In this document: positions 425 to 15,807 of the stretch, in pieces
Layout of the letters: every line of letters starts with the position of its first letter
How positions within the stretch are numbered: position 1 is the first letter of the stretch
Translations under genes and position numbers: made by a program
From: a virus
Virus genome (UHGV): UHGV-0176695
DNA length: 18,106 nucleotides
Direction: 5' to 3' (one strand)
Notes under the pieces: generated by a model
The model's input: the letters and a program-made list of their open reading frames with translations, nothing else
Told to the model about the DNA's origin: nothing
The model's database searches: none

Positions 425-448
425 TAAAAAAACCGCCCTGTCCGGCGG
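425..448 (-). terminator. Intrinsic terminator between the capsid gene and the downstream small gene
   Basis: Minus-strand hairpin CCGCC-GGACAG-GGCGG (plus 433-448) followed by an 8-nt U-tract (plus 425-432), immediately after the capsid gene stop at 457..455. The plus strand also carries a T-run, so it may act in both directions. Confidence 0.5.
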
Positions 449-454
449 TTTTTA

Positions 455-4237: not shown

Positions 4238-6351
4238 AACCAGCCTCCGTTTCGGGGTAGTGATAACCAGTTTCCGGATAACGCTTCTGACGACGCTTCT
4301 TCTCGCCGCTCATTTCTTCCGGCAACGTTTTTCTTGTCCGCCACACCGGAAGAGCGTTTGTCTGCCGAAGCACCCGCGTCAGCATCCTGCCCTCTTGCCC
4401 ACTGGGGAGGGTTACTCCAGTCACGGATTTTTTCATAGCCACGCAGAATGGCGACCGCATGGGCATAACAGAAAAGGTCAAAGGCTTCGTTATTCCCTTT
4501 GCCTGGCTTACGCCATTTACCGTCAGCGCCACGCTCTTCATAGGTCAGTTCTTCGTAAAACCATTCTCCAATCCAGTCAGGAAAATGAATGTACCCCGGC
4601 CCGGGAGATTCACGCTGCAGGTTATTGCTTAGCTGGTCTTTCAACTGATCCGTCTGCAGGAGGTATACCGGCACCTTTCCCTGGGCATCAGCACGGCGAT
4701 CGCTTCGCCCGGTATTATCCGGGTGTGTGATGGTGATAATTTTCTGGCGTTTCGTGCTGTCACCCTTTATCAGAAAAATCCGTCGGCCCAGTCCATCCTG
4801 ACGACATTTTCGCCAGAATTTATAGGCGTTATCGGTCACACCGTCCTCACCCCCACTGTCAACCGCCATTGCCAGCACAGGCATTCTGCGGGACGAATCG
4901 GACTGGAGCGGATATGTTTTCTCCAGTACATCGGTGACCAGCAACTGCCAGTCTTCCGGGTAAGCGCCGGGATGTACAGGAAGAGCCTCACCATTTTCAT
5001 CACAGCGCAATGAATGCCGGATGTTATAACGGTCCACCAGCCAGCGTTCGCCGTCCTCACCATAGCCAGTAATCTGCACCACAAACCGCCGGTTCTTCCC
5101 ACCCTGCACGTCGACTGCCGCAATAAGAAAACGTACTTTCGGTGGCACCAGGCGTTTACCGTAATCTTCGGCCCGCTGCATCAGCACATCTGCACTGCGC
5201 AACTCCAGTGCAGAACGAGGCAAATAAGGTAATCCCCAGTCGGTATTAATCACCGCCTTCAGTGTTTCTTCACTGCCTGTGGCTTCATATTCCTGCTCAG
5301 CTGTCAGTAGTTTGTAAACCAGTTGTGCCCAGGTCTGATAGGCTGCAGCGGGCCCCTCCATCCAGAATGACGCAACCCTTGAATGCCGGGGTGTTCCGGT
5401 AACATTCCCTTCCCTGTCGATCAGCTCACCCTCACGCAACCACACACCGCGTCCATTCAGTTCACGTTTCATGTCCGCGGTGATTCGGTTGCCACAATGA
5501 GGGCATAATATATGAGCCGCTTCACTCGCTTTTACAGGATCAGGATTGTCACGATACCCCGTCATAGCCTCCATGGATGGCTGAAAATAATCACCACAAT
5601 CCGGGCAGGGCCAGTACCAGCGACGACGATCGCCACGGTTATACAGAGAAAGGATACCTGTGGTGGGCGGCGCCTCATGCGGTGATGTTCTGCGCCACTT
5701 ACTGTTTGTGATCTCACGCCCGGGCGAACTCTCCACCAGCGTCATACCTGCAGACATAAATGTGGTGGTACGTTTTGACGCCAGGGAAAAACCATCGCCT
5801 TCGCCATCAATATCTTCAGGAAATCGGTCGTAATCAGTCAGCGCCACACATTTAAAATCAGAGGATGACATGACATTGATGGATGGCCAGCCGATTTTCA
5901 GAAAGCTACCTGACAGAAAATATTTGTCATGAACGTTGTTATCGTTACGGCGTGGGCTGAGGCGTTTTCTGACCTCCGGACTGCAACGAAATGTTCTTGC
6001 CAGGCGCTTTTTGGAGTGCTCCTGCGCCTTATCCTGCGTCATCTGCACCAGCAAAAAGTCAGACGGATCGCAGACAATGTTATAAACCACCCAGCCATCA
6101 ATCAGGCCGTTAGTCTTGCCCGTACGGGCAGGACCAACAAAAACAACCGCATCAAACTCACGGGACGACAGGCAGTTCATGGGTTCAATCACATACGGTG
6201 CAACCAGTGGATCCCACGGAACAGAGTTGCCACCAGATGTAGGGACTCGCATAAATTTTTGAACCGCTTCGGCAACAGGCATTCTGCGCGGCGCTTTAAT
6301 TAACTGGCCTGTATCCAGTTTCAAAGATCTGGCGGTCGCCTGCACAGGCAT
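4234..6351 (-). CDS. Terminase large subunit (lambda GpA-like)
   Basis: 705-aa ORF; Walker A-like VFVGPARTGKT near the N-terminus; ATG at 6351 overlaps the stop of the upstream small-subunit gene (TAATG); size and synteny as for lambda A. Confidence 0.9.
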   Translation of the reverse strand: MPVQATARSLKLDTGQLIKAPRRMPVAEAVQKFMRVPTSGGNSVPWDPLVAPYVIEPMNCLSSREFDAVVFVGPARTGKTNGLIDGWVVYNIVCDPSDFLLVQMTQDKAQEHSKKRLARTFRCSPEVRKRLSPRRNDNNVHDKYFLSGSFLKIGWPSINVMSSSDFKCVALTDYDRFPEDIDGEGDGFSLASKRTTTFMSAGMTLVESSPGREITNSKWRRTSPHEAPPTTGILSLYNRGDRRRWYWPCPDCGDYFQPSMEAMTGYRDNPDPVKASEAAHILCPHCGNRITADMKRELNGRGVWLREGELIDREGNVTGTPRHSRVASFWMEGPAAAYQTWAQLVYKLLTAEQEYEATGSEETLKAVINTDWGLPYLPRSALELRSADVLMQRAEDYGKRLVPPKVRFLIAAVDVQGGKNRRFVVQITGYGEDGERWLVDRYNIRHSLRCDENGEALPVHPGAYPEDWQLLVTDVLEKTYPLQSDSSRRMPVLAMAVDSGGEDGVTDNAYKFWRKCRQDGLGRRIFLIKGDSTKRQKIITITHPDNTGRSDRRADAQGKVPVYLLQTDQLKDQLSNNLQRESPGPGYIHFPDWIGEWFYEELTYEERGADGKWRKPGKGNNEAFDLFCYAHAVAILRGYEKIRDWSNPPQWARGQDADAGASADKRSSGVADKKNVAGRNERREEASSEALSGNWLSLPRNGGWL

Positions 6352-9160: not shown

Positions 9161-9542
9161 TGCCTCCTCCTCCACCCCGCAGACGGGAGAACAGGCTGGA
9201 CACCAGTGATGCAATATCCTGCTGGTGGATGAACGAGAGAATCTTCACCGACACCACTGACACCAGCACTGCACACAGTGCGTCGACAGGCGCACCGTCA
9301 AACCCTGTATGCTTTACCAGCCAGGATGCCAGAACCTCTGCGCCCAGCACGCCAATAATGAACGACACCAGAAAATGCGCCGCCACACGCCAGGCTGAAA
9401 GCGCCTGCGGCATCGTTGCCACAAACAACGCCCCAGCGAACGCACCAAACACAATCCCGAAATCCGTTCCGGTAAACAGCCCGAATACCGTCGCCCCGCC
9501 GAGCGCCGCAGCCGTGCCGGAACCGGATAAGGGTTCAGACAT
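9150..9542 (-). CDS. Putative holin (multi-pass membrane protein, 130 aa)
   Basis: Track ORF 9150..9680 trimmed to ATG 9542, preceded by AGGAG with a 7-nt spacer; the longer ORF would run through an upstream terminator. Gly/Ala-rich hydrophobic segments; first gene of the lysis cassette. Confidence 0.5.
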   Translation of the reverse strand: MSEPLSGSGTAAALGGATVFGLFTGTDFGIVFGAFAGALFVATMPQALSAWRVAAHFLVSFIIGVLGAEVLASWLVKHTGFDGAPVDALCAVLVSVVSVKILSFIHQQDIASLVSSLFSRLRGGGGGNVK

Positions 9543-9556
9543 ACTTTTTCTCCTGT

Positions 9557-9580
9557 AAATAAAAAAGGCCACCAGCGGCC
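9557..9580 (-). terminator. Intrinsic terminator immediately upstream of the holin ribosome-binding site
   Basis: Minus-strand hairpin GGCC-GCTGGT-GGCC (plus 9567-9580) followed by TTTTTTATTT (plus 9557-9566), then AGGAG and the holin ATG. Confidence 0.45.
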
Positions 9581-9664
9581 CGTAAAAAAACACCCCATCA
9601 AAGGCACCCGCAGATGCATTTTGTATGGTGTTATCTGATGTGATGTACGCCGGACGTGGCGCGG

Positions 9665-9694
9665 ATATAAAAAAGGCCACGCAAGTGCGCAGCC
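9665..9694 (-). terminator. Intrinsic terminator downstream of the cargo gene
   Basis: Minus-strand RNA hairpin GGCUGCGC-ACUU-GCGUGGCC (8 bp including two G-U pairs; plus 9675-9694) followed by UUUUUUAUAU; lies 8 nt after the TGA stop at 9704..9702. Confidence 0.5.
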
Positions 9695-9701
9695 CGATGA
9701 T

Positions 9702-10286
9702 TCAGAGATTTTCGAACGATTCCTTTTTACGACTCCAGCCTTCTATCTTCGGAAGAGATGCTTTGCCAAATTTCACCTCATTCATCGACATTAAGATACT
9801 GTCTTTGATGAACTCGCATATCTCGTTAAATTTTGCGTACGTATCTACGTGCGAAAATGTTCTGGCCTGATAACCATCAACTGAAATCGTTATGTTATCA
9901 CCATCAAGCAAAAGAATCTTTACACCGACTTTCACCCATTCCGACTGCCGCGGGTTGTCATCAATGACAGTACATAAATCAAATTCAACACCATCCTGAA
10001 GCTCAACCCTCAAATCCTCAGGTTTATTAACGTGTCCGCGCCACGATATATAAACATACGGACGTTCTTTGCCGTTAATATCACGCCACTGCGAGGCAGG
10101 CAGTTCCAGAGAATTTTCATAAACACTGACTAGCCTTTTGGCGGTATCCCGCAACCGCTGAATGTATCCCTGCTCAGCTTTCAGTATTTCGGCCCGTTTT
10201 GCCCTGATATCCACATAAGTGACCACTGTATCAATCCTCTTATGAACAAATAAACAAGCCATCATAATAACCGCCAGGGTATACAT
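9702..10286 (-). CDS. Cargo (moron) protein of unknown function; N-terminal hydrophobic anchor, coiled-coil-like segment, beta-rich C-terminal domain
   Basis: Open frame 9702..10391, but the track start is GTG and the extension runs through two terminator hairpins. First ATG after them is 10286 (MYTLAVIMMACLFVHK...). An alternative GTG about 60 nt further downstream (VVTYVDIRAK...) has a better ribosome-binding site (AAGAGGA, 8-nt spacer) and would remove the anchor. Region is clearly more AT-rich than its flanks. No family recognised. Confidence 0.5.
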   Translation of the reverse strand: MYTLAVIMMACLFVHKRIDTVVTYVDIRAKRAEILKAEQGYIQRLRDTAKRLVSVYENSLELPASQWRDINGKERPYVYISWRGHVNKPEDLRVELQDGVEFDLCTVIDDNPRQSEWVKVGVKILLLDGDNITISVDGYQARTFSHVDTYAKFNEICEFIKDSILMSMNEVKFGKASLPKIEGWSRKKESFENL

Positions 10287-10309
10287 GAAAAAGGCCCGCC
10301 GCAGCGAGC
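10287..10309 (-). terminator. Intrinsic terminator abutting the cargo gene start
   Basis: Minus-strand hairpin GCUCGC-UGCG-GCGGGC (plus 10294-10309) followed by CUUUUUC, then ATG 10286. Confidence 0.4.
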
Positions 10310-10332
10310 CATAAAGAAACAGGATTCTGAAT

Positions 10333-10356
10333 AAAAAAAACCGCCTGGTACGGCGG
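10333..10356 (-). terminator. Intrinsic terminator downstream of the tRNA genes
   Basis: Minus-strand hairpin CCGCC-GTACCA-GGCGG (plus 10341-10356) followed by eight U (plus 10333-10340). Confidence 0.55.
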
Positions 10357-10718
10357 CTGAAATGGTCAAAAGAACACGTTATATATGTCACAACATTTGA
10401 GGCGTCGGGTGCCTCCCGAAGTATTCAGCCCTGCATGAACACTGTGACTTCCCGCTAAACCGACTCTTTAAATCACCCTCGCACTGAGGAACGCCTCTGC
10501 GGTGTCATTACAACACCAGAATGATGCATCACCGACCCTGCCAGGAAATACAAAATCTCCACCAGCAATGCACCATTCTGCTGCCGTAAAAAAATCAGCA
10601 CTGAGGCTAACCTGGCCTCAAATCATAGCCAGAGAACAGAATGTCTCTTAAAACAACCCGCTCCCACGTAATAAAAAATACGCCAGTGCTGCAATACAAT
10701 AAGGCTTATTTCAAATGC

Positions 10719-10793
<75 letters not shown>

Positions 10794-10796
10794 ATA

Positions 10797-10872
<76 letters not shown>

Positions 10873-11041
10873 ATTGGTTCCTCAGGAAAAATAAAAATGA
10901 CCGCGCTTTACATCCCCCTCGGAACCGAAAAAGAATATTAATGAGGACAGACACTTTTTCAATCAAAAACCGTGTCAATATTCGTAAATATATGTATAGT
11001 TTTCCATTAGTTATGAAATTCAGAAATAATGACACGCACAT

Positions 11042-12088
11042 TTAACGATTATTTTTTATTTCAATTACAGTCTGGTTAAATCTCTCTTCTTCCAGTTCCA
11101 CACCTATTGCACGCCTTCCCAGCGATAATGCTGCTTTTATTGTTGACCCCGACCCCATAAAAAAATCAGCGACCAAATCTCCCGGATGGCTGCTGGCGGT
11201 AATTATCTGACGCAACATATCCGCCGGTTTCTCACAGGGATGTTTGCCGGGGTAATACTGCACAGGCTTGTGCGTCCAGACATCCGTATACGGAACGGCA
11301 GCCGATACGGAAAAATAACGCCGCAGGGATTTGTACTCCTCCAGCAGACTGGCATATTGCCGGTTCAGTTCACTGTATGTGCTGACCAGCTGGTGGTGTG
11401 GCTTTTCCAGTTCACCGCGCTGATGTTTTTCTGCTGCAACACGCGCAAACAACGCCTGTAATTTCAGATAATCGCCTTCGTTCGGCAACTGCCACTGACT
11501 GGTGCCAAACCAGTGCGAAGCCATGTTTTTCTTTCCGGTGGCTTCCGCTATCTGTTTTGACGTTATTCCCAGTAATTCACGCGCATCACGAAAGTAAGAA
11601 ATCAGCGGGGCCATGACGTGCTGTTTTAGCTCGCGCCCCTTTGCCGCATAGCCGTCATTTTTGGGCTGGTATGGCCCCTGATAATGTTCAGCAAACAGAA
11701 TGCGTTCTGTTGCCGGAAAATACGCCCGCAGGCTTTCCTTGTTGCACCCGTTCCAGCGCCCGGACGGCTTCGCCCAGATAATGTGGTTCAGCACATTAAA
11801 GCGTTCACGCATCATGATTTCGATATCAGATGCCAGGCGATGACCACAGAACAGGTAAAGACTTCCGGCAGGCTTTAATACCCGCCAGAATTGCGCCAGA
11901 CACTGGTCCAGCCATTTCAGATAATCATCGTCGCCCTTCCACTGGTTATCCCAGCCTTCGGGCTTCACTTTAAAGTATGGCGGGTCTGTGACTATCAGAT
12001 CGACAGAGTTTTCCGGTAAGGTCTGGATAAATTCCAGGCAATCAGCGTTGATTAACTCACAACTGGATATTTTCACAGTATTAGCCAT
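11042..12088 (-). CDS. DNA methyltransferase, beta-class amino-MTase (N6-adenine or N4-cytosine); no adjacent restriction gene
   Basis: 348-aa ORF with ATG at 12088; catalytic motif IV DPPY (LIVTDPPYF) near the N-terminus and the AdoMet-binding motif FFMGSGST near the C-terminus, the circularly permuted order typical of the beta class. Neighbours are tRNAs and a small HTH gene, not an endonuclease. Confidence 0.85.
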   Translation of the reverse strand: MANTVKISSCELINADCLEFIQTLPENSVDLIVTDPPYFKVKPEGWDNQWKGDDDYLKWLDQCLAQFWRVLKPAGSLYLFCGHRLASDIEIMMRERFNVLNHIIWAKPSGRWNGCNKESLRAYFPATERILFAEHYQGPYQPKNDGYAAKGRELKQHVMAPLISYFRDARELLGITSKQIAEATGKKNMASHWFGTSQWQLPNEGDYLKLQALFARVAAEKHQRGELEKPHHQLVSTYSELNRQYASLLEEYKSLRRYFSVSAAVPYTDVWTHKPVQYYPGKHPCEKPADMLRQIITASSHPGDLVADFFMGSGSTIKAALSLGRRAIGVELEEERFNQTVIEIKNNR

Positions 12089-12238
12089 AGATCAATAAGC
12101 ACTTCTCTGATAGGCTCATTCTGCTTTTGCGCAAAGCAGATGGGCCTGAGGTTTGCTTGTGACCCCAACGCATGAGCAGATGGCTGGCAGGTGCCGCTAA
12201 CACCCACCAGCCGCCCATTACCACAAATTAAAAAGCCT

Positions 12239-12436
12239 TCACTGCGGAAGGCGTCTGTAACAACCGAACTGATAATCTGCCAGACCCGCCATAACAAGCT
12301 GGGTCAGTATTAACTGGCAGCGTTCGCGTGAAAGGTAAGTATTCTGTGCAATCTCCCCGACGGTCGCCGGTTCGCTGACGCTTAACTCATTAAACACCAC
12401 TCTGGCGGTTTCGGTCATATCCTGCTGTTTTAGCAT
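12239..12436 (-). CDS. Small helix-turn-helix-like protein (65 aa), possible transcriptional regulator
   Basis: Track ORF 12239..12559 trimmed to ATG 12436 (AAGGA ribosome-binding site); the longer form would run through the upstream terminator. Candidate HTH segment TVGEIAQNTYLSRERCQLIL. No family recognised. Confidence 0.4.
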   Translation of the reverse strand: MLKQQDMTETARVVFNELSVSEPATVGEIAQNTYLSRERCQLILTQLVMAGLADYQFGCYRRLPQ

Positions 12437-12559
12437 GTCTTTTTTCCTTTTCTGGTTAACGTGACATACCAATAACTCTTGTCCAAAAAGCCAGCAAGCT
12501 GAAAGACCGGCATTCGCAACCACCAGCGCATTTAACGTCCTGTACCGCTTTTCGGGCAC

Positions 12560-12582
12560 AAAAAAACCCGCTTGGCGGCGGG
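12560..12582 (-). terminator. Intrinsic terminator about 50 nt downstream of the late promoter (tR'-like)
   Basis: Minus-strand hairpin CCCGC-CGCCAA-GCGGG (plus 12567-12582) followed by seven U (plus 12560-12566). Confidence 0.6.
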
Positions 12583-12636
12583 TTTTGCTTACTTTGCCAT
12601 CGCGTACAAAATCGGCAAAATATCAGATTTGCATGA

Positions 12637-12665
12637 AATATATGCTTTTTAATCTACTTTTGCAA
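12637..12665 (-). promoter_or_regulatory. Sigma70-type promoter just downstream of the Q-like gene (candidate late promoter pR')
   Basis: On the minus strand: -35 TTGCAA (plus 12660-12665), 17-nt spacer, -10 TATATT (plus 12637-12642). The -35 overlaps the last codons of the Q-like ORF. Confidence 0.45.
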
Positions 12666-13338
12666 TACTTTGCTTTGAAAATGCCGCCTTTTGTTCCAAA
12701 CGCGTTCTCATTACCAACAATAAAGCCTCACTATCCAGCTGGTGGAAAATGTGTTTCATTGCAACCCAGTGACCAGTAAATGTTTTGGACCAGTTTTTAG
12801 TTGTCACTCCCGCCAGTAATGCCAGATCCTGGTATTCATAACCTTCCCCGCCAAAAAGTTCTGCTTTTACTGCCTGCGCCGCCAGCCAGATTAATTTTTT
12901 CAGGCGTTCCCGTGTTTTCTCTGCAATTTTCCTGTTGCCAGAATGAGCCTTAAACTCTTCCCATGCCCAGCGGGTTATGGTGACCTGATACTCCCAGCAA
13001 ATATTTCCGCTGTAACACCACAACAACCAGGTTTTATGAGGTTCTTCAAGAGACAGAACAGCCCGTCGCCATGAGGATGTCGAAAACTCAACCTGACTTA
13101 CCAGAGGAATTGACGTCCCCTTCGCCAGCGATTGTTTCCCCGGGATTGGTGGATTATCCCGCGTGATCATTTTTCCAGTCACTTCATCGCGGTACCGGAT
13201 TTTTTTACGCCTGTAACGCCCTGTATCGAACATGGCATTCTCCTGCCAGGCTTCAAGCTGACCTTTTGTTGCCCCACTCAAATCGGCGGTGGCGATAATG
13301 AGCTGCTCACGAACAAACTGTAAATACTGGTTATTCAT
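12649..13338 (-). CDS. Putative late-gene antitermination protein (Q-like)
   Basis: 229-aa ORF; ATG at 13338 overlaps the RusA stop (ATGA). Sits directly downstream of rusA and upstream of a promoter-terminator pair, the classical lambdoid Q position. Assigned by synteny and architecture, not by recognised sequence motifs. Confidence 0.45.
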   Translation of the reverse strand: MNNQYLQFVREQLIIATADLSGATKGQLEAWQENAMFDTGRYRRKKIRYRDEVTGKMITRDNPPIPGKQSLAKGTSIPLVSQVEFSTSSWRRAVLSLEEPHKTWLLWCYSGNICWEYQVTITRWAWEEFKAHSGNRKIAEKTRERLKKLIWLAAQAVKAELFGGEGYEYQDLALLAGVTTKNWSKTFTGHWVAMKHIFHQLDSEALLLVMRTRLEQKAAFSKQSIAKVD

Positions 13339-13694
13339 GCGCACTCCAGCCCTGTGATTTTTATCCCCAACCGACCACCAGGAACGACCTGACCGCGCAC
13401 AATATTAATTTCATCAAACTGCTCGTCGTCGATAAGCAACCCCGCATGTGTCAGTGCATCCAGTGGTGCTTTCAGAATATTGTCCAGGTCACGACGGCGC
13501 TTATCCGGCGGCTCTGCAATGATCTTTATCGCCAGCCTTCCGGACAGGTTTAATTTCAGCCGCTGCTGGTGAACAATAAGCGCCACATCCCGGCGATAAC
13601 GCTCACCGACTTTTGATACAAAATATGTGCTGCCACGACGTCGCCAGTAGGTGTTCACCGTCGGCGGGTAAGGCAAAACAAACTCTATATGCAT
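13335..13694 (-). CDS. rusA: RusA-family Holliday junction resolvase
   Basis: 119-aa ORF; ATG at 13694 with an AGAGG ribosome-binding site. Sequence (LPYPPTVNTYWRRRG...PDKRRRDLDNILKAPLDALTHAGLLIDDEQF) matches the E. coli RusA pattern (LPWPPSNNRYY...[23 protein letters not shown]) from memory. Confidence 0.85.
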   Translation of the reverse strand: MHIEFVLPYPPTVNTYWRRRGSTYFVSKVGERYRRDVALIVHQQRLKLNLSGRLAIKIIAEPPDKRRRDLDNILKAPLDALTHAGLLIDDEQFDEINIVRGQVVPGGRLGIKITGLECA

Positions 13695-15124: not shown

Positions 15125-15196
15125 GTTAAGCGCGGGTGCGTTGAGGATGCCGACACATCAGAGGTGGCGGGAGATTACTCTCCCGCCTGGTCACTC

Positions 15197-15560: not shown

Positions 15561-15807
15561 TTTATTGCCAGCACCATCTATCCAGGCTAATTTATCTGCG
15601 TCAGAACGGCGCAATGCGCTCGCCTGAGATACGTTTACTTGCCATGGTAACAACAGGTAACGGCAATTGTTGTTTCTGTTTTGTTTCCTTCAAAAACCCC
15701 GGACCATCAATCCGGGGTTTTTGTTTGTTATCCCCAGCGGCAAATCGAATACACCACCAGCGCCACCGCCATTGCAATTCCTACCGTTGTGAACGCTTCA
15801 GACCAGG

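What the first reader, a model, noticed from the sequence alone, without database searches (positions are those of the whole stretch)
11042..12436. Orphan beta-class DNA methyltransferase preceded by a small HTH gene and a near-perfect palindrome
The methyltransferase has clear DPPY and FxGxG motifs in beta-class order but no restriction endonuclease partner, suggesting anti-restriction self-methylation or epigenetic control. In the 150-nt gap before its start sits a 19-bp near-palindrome, CTGCTTTTGCGCAAAGCAG (12121-12139), and just upstream a 65-aa HTH-like protein. The arrangement is reminiscent of controller (C) protein and C-box regulation in restriction-modification systems, but this is speculative.
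Basis: partly seen in the sequence, partly recalled or inferred. Interest (0 to 1): 0.5.

Follow-up and report, generated by a model that had tools for sequence, protein, structure and literature searches.

The report
Structured leader RNA gating a phage methylase
The gene is a close relative of M.EcoGII, a known prophage enzyme that methylates adenine in any DNA sequence, and the "palindrome" before it is the tip of a conserved, apparently undescribed folded mRNA leader that pairs with the gene's ribosome-landing site, probably helping to keep this toxic enzyme off until the phage goes lytic.

Summary
That includes the 348-aa beta-class methyltransferase (11042-12088), a 65-aa gene (12239-12436) and an 8-bp perfect hairpin (12120-12140).

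The methyltransferase is not a new orphan. It is 86% identical to M.EcoGII, the characterised non-specific adenine methyltransferase of lambdoid prophages. It sits at the start of a Q-dependent late operon, behind two terminators.

The C-protein/C-box reading is not supported:
- The small protein is an acidic winged-helix protein, not an XRE-type C protein.
- No restriction endonuclease gene lies nearby.
- No palindrome lies upstream of the small gene.
- The palindrome persists unchanged where the small gene is absent.

The palindrome is the apical hairpin of a ~138-nt two-domain 5' leader RNA (12089-12226). The leader abuts the methyltransferase start codon in at least 15 enterobacterial genera. 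It has no Rfam match.

Covariation supports its helices: 93.9% of cells paired, and 14 of 40 pairs with double changes versus 6.4 in shuffles. One long-range helix pairs a 16S-like GAUCAC with the UGAUC just before the AUG. A competing helix also covaries, which hints at a switch.

The likely role is a translational safety catch on a toxic enzyme. The trigger is unknown.

The parts
12649..13344 (-). Q antiterminator gene (231 aa), immediately upstream of the module
   Evidence: Pfam Phage_antiter_Q PF06323 at E=4.3e-88. phrog_304 at E=1.4e-104.
12637..12665 (-). Candidate late promoter pR' (TTGCAA-17-TATATT), overlapping the Q stop codon
   Evidence: Consensus scan, 9 of 12 matches. Its position relative to Q and the terminator is as in lambdoid late regions. 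Inferred, not shown.
12556..12632 (-). Short pR'-tR' leader RNA. The intrinsic terminator tR' has its stem at 12563-12586, followed by a U run.
   Evidence: The terminator arms are 9 nt and 100% complementary. There is a sub-threshold but full-length Rfam isrK match: 23.8 bits against a gathering score of 50, model positions 1-77, at 12561-12632.
12239..12436 (-). Small acidic winged-helix protein gene (65 aa)
   Evidence: Codon-position variability is 9:8:35. phrog_331. AlphaFold pLDDT is 86.9 with H-b-H-H-wing topology. The family's median pI is 5.1.
12225..12252 (-). Second terminator-like hairpin t2 (GCCTTC cgcagt GAAGGC + TTTTTAATTT), overlapping the small ORF stop codon
   Evidence: Terminator scan. 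A hairpin, often with a U-rich tail, precedes the leader in other genera with different stem sequences (GCCUCC/GGAGGC, GCUGCC/GGCAGU, and others).
12089..12226 (-). Conserved structured 5' leader RNA of the methyltransferase (two domains)
   Evidence: Covariance model R1 matches 12083-12226 at 124.4 bits, E=2e-26. 93.9% of cells are paired and 14 of 40 pairs show double changes, against 6.4 +/- 1.4 in shuffles. The single-sequence MFE is -63.8 kcal/mol, z=-3.67. No Rfam family matches at E<=10.
12172..12218 (-). Leader domain 1. It comprises invariant 'a' (AUGGGC, 12218-12213), hairpin P1 (arms 12212-12201 and 12193-12182) and a' (12177-12172).
   Evidence: the repeat finder I2. In helix 2, 7 of 12 pairs have double changes and 97% of cells are paired. 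Helix 1 is 98.6% paired.
12154..12164 (-). Segment b (GGUCA-C-AAGCA), the 5' strand of the long-range helix. It resembles 16S rRNA GAUCAC.
   Evidence: Helix 3 is 93.4% paired, with 4 of 10 pairs showing double changes. The same segment also covaries with a' in the alternative helix P2.
12121..12139 (-). The stem is CUGCUUU/AAAGCAG and the loop is GCGCA.
   Evidence: The core GCUU/AAGC is invariant. The flanking CAU/AUG changes to CAC/GUG in other lineages (25 versus 41 sequences, pair 90:113).
12090..12101 (-). Segment b' (UGCUU..UGAUC), the 3' strand of the long-range helix. It ends 1 nt before the AUG and holds the only Shine-Dalgarno-like stretch.
   Evidence: helix 3. In 70 of 73 leaders, the best anti-SD complementarity within 22 nt of the AUG is (C/U)UGAUCU, with a median of -5.3 kcal/mol.
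11042..12088 (-). M.EcoGII-family non-specific adenine DNA methyltransferase (348 aa)
   Evidence: PF01555 at E=5e-45. 86% identity to M.EcoGII over 347 aa. 86% identity to the phage 1720a-02 methyltransferase.
10719..10872 (-). tRNA-Thr(UGU) and tRNA-Gly(UCC), the next genes of the late transcript
   Evidence: ARAGORN. Rfam tRNA at 73.8 and 65.6 bits.

Best explanation
The region is the first stretch of a lambdoid late operon. In a lysogen, transcripts from pR' stop at tR' (inferred). They give a short RNA of the 6S/StxS/IsrK type. A second hairpin terminator follows the small gene. After induction, Q-modified RNA polymerase reads through both terminators (inferred from the known family mechanism).

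The methyltransferase is an M.EcoGII-type enzyme. This family methylates adenine in any sequence context, which makes progeny phage DNA broadly restriction-resistant. The enzyme is harmful if made in the host, and that is shown for M.EcoGII, not for this copy.

Its mRNA carries a conserved 138-nt leader (shown by comparison across genera). Domain 1 is a long hairpin. Domain 2 is closed by a long-range helix. In that helix a 16S-like GAUCAC/AAGCR segment (b) pairs with CGCUU/UGAUC (b') directly before the AUG.

I infer that the helix hides the ribosome-landing site, so that leaky read-through transcripts are poorly translated. A competing helix (a' with b) also covaries and would free the site. 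The leader may therefore be a two-state gate. What opens it is unknown. Candidates are RNase III cutting of the long stems, ribosome traffic on the leader, or a phage factor.

The small winged-helix protein is a frequent neighbour but is not required for the leader.
For: Identity of the enzyme:
- 86% identity to M.EcoGII.
- PMC5778455 reports non-specific adenine methylation, silence in the lysogen and harm on constitutive expression.

Operon context:
- The Q gene lies immediately upstream.
- A pR'-like promoter and two terminator-like hairpins are present.
- An isrK-like short RNA lies between promoter and first terminator.
- The same order recurs in phiP27, phage 1720a-02 and E. coli prophages.

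The leader is real:
- The full-length covariance-model match always ends at ATG+3. It is found in 49 of 87 sources, including 9 not used to build the model.
- On an unfitted MAFFT alignment, 92.3% of cells pair, against 31-45% when partners are slid. 12 pairs have double changes, against 5.8 in shuffles.
- On 73 distinct sequences, 93.9% of cells pair and 14 of 40 pairs have double changes, reached by 0 of 500 shuffles.
- The MFE folds of 9 diverse single sequences, from E. coli to Proteus, all show the same two-domain architecture.
- Abundant G-U pairs and a 13 kcal/mol advantage of the sense strand point to an RNA on this strand.

Occlusion of the initiation site:
- Helix 3 spans about -28 to -5 relative to the AUG.
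- The only anti-SD complementarity is the UGAUC inside that helix.

Possible switch:
- In P2, 5 of 8 pairs have double changes.
- Pair 52:76 shows UA 34, CG 21, AU 9 and UG 4.
Against: - No expression data exist for this locus.
- Computed accessibility of -20..+3 is only modestly lower with the full leader (0.34-0.45) than with a truncated leader (0.42-0.58).
- The alternative fold is less stable than the closed fold in seven of the nine sequences tested (by 2-13 kcal/mol, 8-13 in the enteric ones). It is the more stable fold in the Morganella sequence and in L113.
- Much of the covariation comes from a few deep splits (Proteus/Morganella, the E. coli type), so independent events are fewer than the cell counts suggest.
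- Xenorhabdus and Photorhabdus homologues lack domain 2, and some have an ordinary Shine-Dalgarno sequence. The leader is therefore not essential to the enzyme family.
- pR' and Q-dependence are inferred from the layout.
Confidence: 0.6

Rival explanations
1. The small protein is a controller-like DNA-binding regulator. It binds the palindrome as a dimer on double-stranded DNA and sets methyltransferase transcription.
For: - The small gene lies about 150 nt upstream of the methyltransferase in 32 of 45 leader-positive genomes, and in 82 of 91 viral-contig instances. This holds down to about 40% protein identity.
- The winged-helix fold is common in dimeric DNA binders such as IclR and MarR.
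- The centre of the palindrome stays self-complementary in all lineages: GCGC, GUGCAC, GUCGAC.
Against: - The leader and palindrome are retained without the small gene in 13 of 45 genomes.
- The Morganella leaders L158 (no small gene) and L159 (small gene) are nearly identical.
- The small gene also occurs without the methyltransferase.
- The protein family is acidic and helix 3 is hydrophobic.
- Half-site spacing varies from 15 to 17 nt.
- G-U pairs are tolerated.
- No promoter lies in the gap, no palindrome lies upstream of the small gene, and there is no endonuclease.
- The Rosenbergiella small protein is only 38% identical, yet the stem half-sites are unchanged.
Confidence: 0.08
2. The leader is mainly an RNA processing or stability element. 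For example, it could be an RNase III site that separates cistrons of the long late transcript, as in the lambda N leader. Any effect on translation would be secondary.
For: - P1, together with the a:a' helix, is an 18-bp near-continuous stem. Domain 2 is also a long stem.
- Domain 1 alone is kept where the methyltransferase has been replaced by another gene, with the breakpoint right after a'.
- From general knowledge, RNase III processing of phage leaders is well known.
Against: - The 3' strand of the long-range helix always ends 1 nt from the AUG and contains the SD-like UGAUC. A pure processing site would not need this.
- The a':b alternative helix covaries.
Confidence: 0.2
3. The leader, or part of it, is released as a trans-acting small RNA, or it is started from its own promoter at the conserved TGTGRAAAT box.
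For: - The conserved 5' box TGTGRAAAT resembles an extended -10 element.
- Prophage late leaders do give regulatory RNAs: IsrK (PMC4825925) and StxS (PMC7547250).
Against: - No terminator follows the leader. It runs straight into the coding sequence in every locus.
- The promoter scan does not call this site.
- No Rfam sRNA matches.
Confidence: 0.07
4. The palindrome is a chance hairpin in an ordinary spacer, with no function.
For: A perfect 8-bp hairpin alone is not statistically exceptional in 18 kb.
Against: - The 150-nt spacer is more conserved (mean pairwise difference 0.043) than the adjacent coding gene (0.052).
- It is recognisable in Proteus and Morganella, where the enzyme is only 60-64% identical.
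- The covariation statistics also argue against chance.
Confidence: 0.02

Closest known systems
M.EcoGII / M.EcoGI (E. coli O104:H4 C227-11 prophage methyltransferases; PMC5778455)
   Same: - Beta-class order and a length of 348-349 aa.
- 86% identity.
- A location in a lambdoid prophage.
- Relatives that are 91% identical to M.EcoGII carry the same leader (L057), as does phage 1720a-02, which the paper names as a close homologue.
   Different: About 14% sequence divergence, and a different N-terminus (MAN versus MLN). Activity of this copy is untested. The paper does not discuss upstream sequences: 'upstream' occurs 0 times in it.
Lambda N-leader and similar ribosome-site-sequestering phage mRNA leaders (general knowledge)
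   Same: A long stem that includes the translation initiation region of a phage gene. It could be opened by processing or by alternative pairing.
   Different: There is no sequence or Rfam relationship. The architecture here has two domains. The Shine-Dalgarno-like element is the non-canonical UGAUC, paired to a 16S-like GAUCAC. The activating step is unknown.
IsrK-orf45-anrP of Gifsy-1 (PMC4825925), and the StxS and lambda 6S RNAs
   Same: A short RNA made from the late promoter just after a Q-type gene and ended by a terminator. In the IsrK system, read-through mRNA is translationally inactive until it is restructured. The window's pR'-tR' RNA gives a full-length but sub-threshold isrK hit.
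   Different: The downstream genes differ: a winged-helix ORF plus a methyltransferase, not orf45-anrP. The short RNA shows no significant complementarity to the methyltransferase leader (81 of 300 shuffles do as well). The pR' region is not conserved among loci that share the leader (pairwise difference 0.52).
Controller (C) proteins and C-boxes of restriction-modification systems
   Same: A small helix-turn-helix-type gene near a methyltransferase, and a palindrome nearby.
   Different: - The fold is a winged helix, not XRE type.
- The palindrome is downstream of the small gene, not upstream.
- There is no endonuclease.
- The palindrome does not depend on the small gene.
erm-type translational attenuation leaders (general knowledge)
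   Same: A four-segment logic (1:2 and 3:4 versus 2:3) upstream of a methyltransferase gene. An AUG sits in segment 1.
   Different: The leader ORF is not conserved. It runs 3 to 53 codons and its peptide varies. There is no evidence for a stalling peptide.

Membership tests
Beta-class N6A/N4C DNA methyltransferase (Pfam PF01555) | Catalytic DPPY motif lies N-terminal to the SAM-binding FxGxG motif, with a recognition domain between them | tested here: met
   DPPY is at residues 35-38 and FMGSG at residues 310-314. PF01555 matches at E=5e-45 over residues 29-340. The solved beta-class enzymes RsrI, MboIIA, CcrM and DpnA match both ends but not residues ~115-280.
M.EcoGII family (non-specific adenine methyltransferase) | Close full-length sequence similarity to M.EcoGII | tested here: met
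   298 of 347 residues identical (86%). The reference sequence was read from a machine-read supplement of PMC11551740, so a few residues may be misread.
M.EcoGII family (non-specific adenine methyltransferase) | Encoded in a lambdoid prophage or phage | tested here: met
   Q, RusA, DUF968, holin and tRNA genes flank it. The same module occurs in phiP27, phage 1720a-02 and Stx phages.
M.EcoGII family (non-specific adenine methyltransferase) | Methylates adenine in any sequence context, and is silent in the lysogen | not testable with these tools
   Reported for M.EcoGII only (PMC5778455).
Orphan methyltransferase | No cognate restriction endonuclease gene adjacent, in this window or in relatives | tested here: met
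   Neighbours are Q, the small ORF and tRNAs. Annotated relatives show none. Only phiP27 has a GIY-YIG nuclease between Q and the small gene, and this is not conserved.
R-M controller (C) protein / C-box | XRE-type helix-turn-helix protein | tested here: not met
   No XRE/HTH_3 hit. There is only a sub-threshold TrmB hit (18.5 bits against a cut-off of 25.6), and no NCBIfam hit. The model is a winged helix whose best matches are IclR, MarR and O-methyltransferase N-terminal domains.
R-M controller (C) protein / C-box | Palindromic operator(s) immediately upstream of the C gene itself | tested here: not met
   No inverted repeat lies between the terminator (12563-12586) and the small ORF start at 12436. 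The palindrome lies downstream of the small gene.
R-M controller (C) protein / C-box | Controls a linked endonuclease gene | tested here: not met
   No endonuclease gene is present.
Any Rfam 15 RNA family (for the leader, 12089-12226) | Covariance-model match at or near the gathering score | tested here: not met
   Nothing matched at E<=1 over 9500-13500. Nothing matched at E<=10 over 12060-12660, apart from a meaningless U1 hit at 9.3 bits.
Ribosome-site-sequestering cis-regulatory mRNA leader | A conserved helix that includes the translation initiation region, supported by compensatory changes | tested here: met
   Helix 3 (columns 66-76 with 132-143 of A4) is 93.4% paired, with 4 of 10 pairs showing double changes. 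It contains the SD-like UGAUC.
Ribosome-site-sequestering cis-regulatory mRNA leader | A mutually exclusive alternative helix that frees the site | tested here: inconclusive
   In P2, 5 of 8 pairs have double changes, but only 73% of cells are paired. P2 is less stable than the closed form in seven of nine sequences tested.
Ribosome-site-sequestering cis-regulatory mRNA leader | A measured effect on translation | not testable with these tools
   This needs reporter fusions. The accessibility calculation was only weakly informative.
isrK (RF01394), for the pR'-tR' RNA | Score at or above the Rfam gathering threshold | tested here: not met
   23.8 bits against 50. The match covers the full model and sits in the same position after a Q gene. 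It is an analogue, not a confirmed member.

The most novel reading that the evidence does not exclude
The leader is a true two-state riboregulator dedicated to a promiscuous m6A writer.
- Its invariant a (AUGGGC) and c (GCCCA) segments and its always self-complementary apical loop would mediate an activating event.
- That event could be RNase III cutting, loop-loop dimerisation, or binding of a phage factor.
- The acidic winged-helix protein encoded just upstream is a candidate factor. It could act on the RNA, as SelB does on a hairpin, or on the enzyme itself.
- The event would flip a':b pairing and release the ribosome site only in the lytic cycle.

This would be a new RNA family with a new kind of safety catch for a genome-wide DNA modifier.
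Probability: 0.2. Interest if true: 0.7.

Novelty: new member of a known kind. Interest (0 to 1): 0.5.

Why it matters
M.EcoGII is widely used as a tool for marking accessible DNA and RNA with m6A. Its discoverers noted that it is silent in lysogens and harmful when expressed, but they did not say how it is held off.

About a third of complete E. coli genomes carry this module: 1874 of 5426 with near-full coverage, and up to 9 copies per genome. The layout found here gives a concrete, testable answer in three layers: two terminators, then a conserved leader that pairs with the ribosome site.

The leader also adds an uncatalogued structured RNA family, found in prophages of many Enterobacterales. 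Knowing the native gate could help in cloning and titrating such toxic enzymes. It could also help in predicting when prophage induction floods a cell with non-specific methylation.

Tried and rejected
1. Leader peptide or Trp-codon attenuation. The invariant AUG in segment a opens MGGWWVL in many loci. However, the ORF runs from 3 to 53 codons, the peptide changes completely in Proteus, and premature stops occur among close relatives. I rejected it as a conserved coding feature.
2. Trans-activation of the methyltransferase leader by the pR' short RNA, IsrK-style. Complementarity was no better than for shuffles (81 of 300), and the pR' region is not conserved among loci that share the leader.
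3. Known RNA families. None matched.
4. A literature search for the leader sequence itself found 0 papers.
5. RNAalifold on the raw MAFFT alignment gave only a partial structure, because of 1-nt register shifts. I solved this with a hand-set structure and a covariance model.
6. Unpaired-probability calculations for the initiation region were weakly informative.
7. Xenorhabdus and Photorhabdus homologues were examined for the same leader. They keep a hairpin, often with a U tail, but lack domain 2.
8. A C-box search upstream of the small gene found nothing.
9. PADLOC and NCBIfam gave no function for the small protein.
Full report
**What is at the coordinates**

All genes in this part of the window are on the minus strand.
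- The 348-aa ORF at 12088->11042 matches Pfam N6_N4_Mtase (PF01555) at E=5e-45.
- DPPY lies at residues 35-38 and FMGSG at residues 310-314, which is beta-class order.
- Solved beta-class enzymes match both ends but not the central ~165 residues, which form the recognition domain.
- The 65-aa ORF at 12436->12239 is a real gene. Among about 65 close relatives, variable sites fall 9:8:35 by codon position. It belongs to phrog_331.
- The palindrome is confirmed: arms 12120-12127 and 12133-12140 are 8 nt and perfectly complementary, with a 5-nt loop.
- An 8-bp hairpin alone is not remarkable. The window holds 6 such loci, against 1.46 +/- 1.39 in shuffles.

**Context**

The window is the late-region start of a lambdoid prophage.
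- Upstream lie RusA, DUF968 and a Q antiterminator (PF06323, E=4e-88).
- Overlapping the Q stop codon is a promoter-like TTGCAA-17-TATATT.
- About 70 nt further on is a strong intrinsic terminator at 12586-12563.
- The stretch between them gives a full-length but sub-threshold match to isrK (23.8 bits against 50). IsrK is the short RNA made after the Q-like gene of Gifsy-1 (PMC4825925).
- A second terminator-like hairpin overlaps the small ORF's stop codon (12252-12235).
- Downstream of the methyltransferase lie tRNA-Thr and tRNA-Gly, then an unknown ORF and a holin gene.
- The same block (small ORF, then methyltransferase, then tRNAs) sits before stx2e in phage phiP27, and it also occurs in phage 1720a-02.
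- 2381 of 5426 complete E. coli genomes have a match, and 1874 have a near-full-length match, with up to 9 copies per genome.

**The enzyme is a known kind**

- It is 86% identical to M.EcoGII (sequence taken from the supplement of PMC11551740).
- It is also 86% identical to the phage 1720a-02 enzyme, which the M.EcoGII paper names as a close homologue.
- That paper shows non-specific adenine methylation, silence in the lysogen and harm on constitutive expression. It proposes anti-restriction on infection.
- No endonuclease gene is adjacent here or in relatives.
The enzyme is not new, and a target motif is not expected.

**The palindrome is part of something larger**

- Among close relatives, the 150-nt spacer varies less (mean pairwise difference 0.043) than the small gene (0.052).
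- Across one genome per species, the stretch from TGTGRAAATGGGCGG to the ATG is recognisable in about 15 genera. These include Escherichia, Salmonella, Klebsiella, Citrobacter, Enterobacter, Kluyvera, Buttiauxella, Mixta, Rosenbergiella, Proteus and Morganella. In the most distant of these the enzyme is only 60-64% identical.
- Both arms of the helices change together. For example, GGCUGGUGGGUG/CACCCGGCCAGCC becomes GACUGUAAAAGUG/CACCUUUACAGUC in Proteus.

**Structure**

*Domain 1*
- The invariant segment a (AUGGGC, 12218-12213) pairs with a' (12177-12172).
- This pairing extends hairpin P1 (arms 12212-12201 and 12193-12182).

*Domain 2*
- Segment b (GGUCA, AAGCA; 12164-12154) pairs with b' (UGCUU, UGAUC; 12101-12090). 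This helix ends 1 nt before the AUG.
- Inside it, c (GGC, CAU) pairs with c' (AUG, GCC).

*Support for the fold*
- On an unfitted MAFFT alignment of 42 sequences, 92.3% of cells pair, against 31-45% when partners are slid. 12 pairs show double changes, against 5.8 +/- 1.4 in shuffles.
- A covariance model finds the full element at E from 1e-17 to 1e-36 in 49 of 87 sources. The match always ends at ATG+3, and it includes sequences not used for building the model.
- On 73 distinct sequences, 93.9% of cells pair and 14 of 40 pairs have double changes, reached by 0 of 500 shuffles.
- The MFE folds of nine diverse single sequences all show the same two domains.
- The window's leader folds at -63.8 kcal/mol (z=-3.67). 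The antisense strand folds at -50.8 kcal/mol.
- G-U pairs are frequent, so the structure is in the sense RNA.
- No Rfam family matches, even at E<=10. A text search for the sequence found no paper.

**How it probably works**

- There is no canonical Shine-Dalgarno sequence.
- In 70 of 73 leaders, the best complementarity to the 16S 3' end within 22 nt of the AUG is (C/U)UGAUCU (median -5.3 kcal/mol). That is similar to the small ORF's AAGGA at -5.6.
- This stretch is the 3' strand of the long-range helix. Its partner, G(G/A)UCAC, copies 16S GAUCAC.
- I infer that the helix hides the ribosome site.
- A competing helix, a' with b (P2), also covaries. 5 of 8 pairs have double changes, and pair 52:76 shows UA 34, CG 21, AU 9 and UG 4.
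- The same b position covaries with b' too: AU 28, GC 21 and 22 unpaired.
- Segments a and c never vary and are mutually complementary (UGGGC:GCCCA), while their partners do vary.
- This is the pattern expected of a switch. However, the open form is less stable than the closed form in seven of the nine sequences tested, by 2-13 kcal/mol.
- Computed accessibility changes only modestly.
- The trigger is unknown.
- Together with the two terminators, the leader would form a third layer that keeps a harmful enzyme off in lysogens.

**The small protein**

- AlphaFold gives a confident winged helix, with pLDDT 86.9.
- The best structural matches are the N-terminal dimerisation domains of O-methyltransferases, IclR and MarR DNA-binding domains, and the SelB RNA-binding domain.
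- The family is acidic: median pI 5.1 and net charge -2.3.
- It lies upstream of the methyltransferase in 32 of 45 leader-positive genomes, and in 82 of 91 viral-contig instances.
- The leader is intact in 13 genomes that lack it, where different genes lie upstream.
- It also occurs without the methyltransferase.
- It is therefore a frequent neighbour of unknown role, not a demonstrated regulator. It fails every tested criterion for a C protein.

**Limits**

- Much of the covariation stems from a few deep lineage splits.
- Promoter use, Q dependence and the translational effect are all inferred.
- Xenorhabdus and Photorhabdus homologues lack domain 2.
- The self-complementary loop of P3 in every lineage (GCGC, GUGCAC, GUCGAC) remains unexplained.

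Noticed in passing
window 12556-12665 (minus strand): There is a candidate late promoter overlapping the Q stop codon, a ~70-nt RNA and a strong terminator. The RNA gives a full-length but sub-threshold Rfam isrK match (23.8 bits). A crude duplex test suggests it is complementary to the 5' UTR of the small ORF: -49.5 kcal/mol against -37.8 +/- 4.1 for shuffles, matched by 3 of 300 shuffles. This recalls IsrK and orf45.
   Followed up: partly
window 12128-12132, and the same loop in L090, L157, L158, L163 and L113: The apical loop of the palindrome hairpin is self-complementary in every lineage (GCGC, AGCGCU, GUGCAC, GUCGAC). A simple hairpin does not need this. Possible reasons are loop-loop dimerisation, a DNA dyad site, or template-switch correction of a quasi-palindrome.
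   Followed up: partly
window 12081-12218 (minus strand): In E. coli-type leaders, an ORF of 45 codons starts at the invariant AUG of the leader. It ends at a UAA that overlaps codons 2-3 of the methyltransferase. In most other genera the same AUG opens only MGGWWVL. The ORF's length and peptide are not conserved.
   Followed up: yes
L003 2937-3075, L184, L220 (O55:H7/O157-type prophages): The small ORF and leader domain 1 are followed not by the methyltransferase but by a 237-aa helix-turn-helix protein (phrog_1450) and tRNA-Ile/Arg/Arg. The recombination breakpoint lies right after segment a' (window ~12166).
   Followed up: partly
L002 4737-5138; L001 6562-7791: Cargo genes are inserted between Q and the small ORF. 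The closest E. coli relative has a PemK/MazF-family toxin gene there, and phage phiP27 has a GIY-YIG nuclease.
   Followed up: no
window 9702-10391 (minus strand): An ORF of up to 229 aa (phrog_5091, unknown function, no Pfam hit) sits where stx genes lie in Stx phages. A terminator-like hairpin at 10358-10339 falls inside its 5' end, so the true start is probably further downstream.
   Followed up: no
window 10719-10872 (minus strand): tRNA-Thr(UGU) and tRNA-Gly(UCC) lie directly after the methyltransferase. Related phages carry Ile/Arg tRNAs at this spot.
   Followed up: no
window 429-452, 5190-5213, 15166-15187, 15696-15718: Four further perfect hairpins of 8 bp or more. Perfect hairpins are about four times more frequent in the window than in shuffles.
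   Followed up: no
L129-L156 (Xenorhabdus, Photorhabdus), about 100 nt before the methyltransferase: These homologues keep the small winged-helix gene and a hairpin, often with a U-rich tail. They lack leader domain 2. Several have an ordinary GAGGAAA Shine-Dalgarno sequence, or a three-codon mini-ORF (AUG GAA UAG) just before a GUG start.
   Followed up: partly
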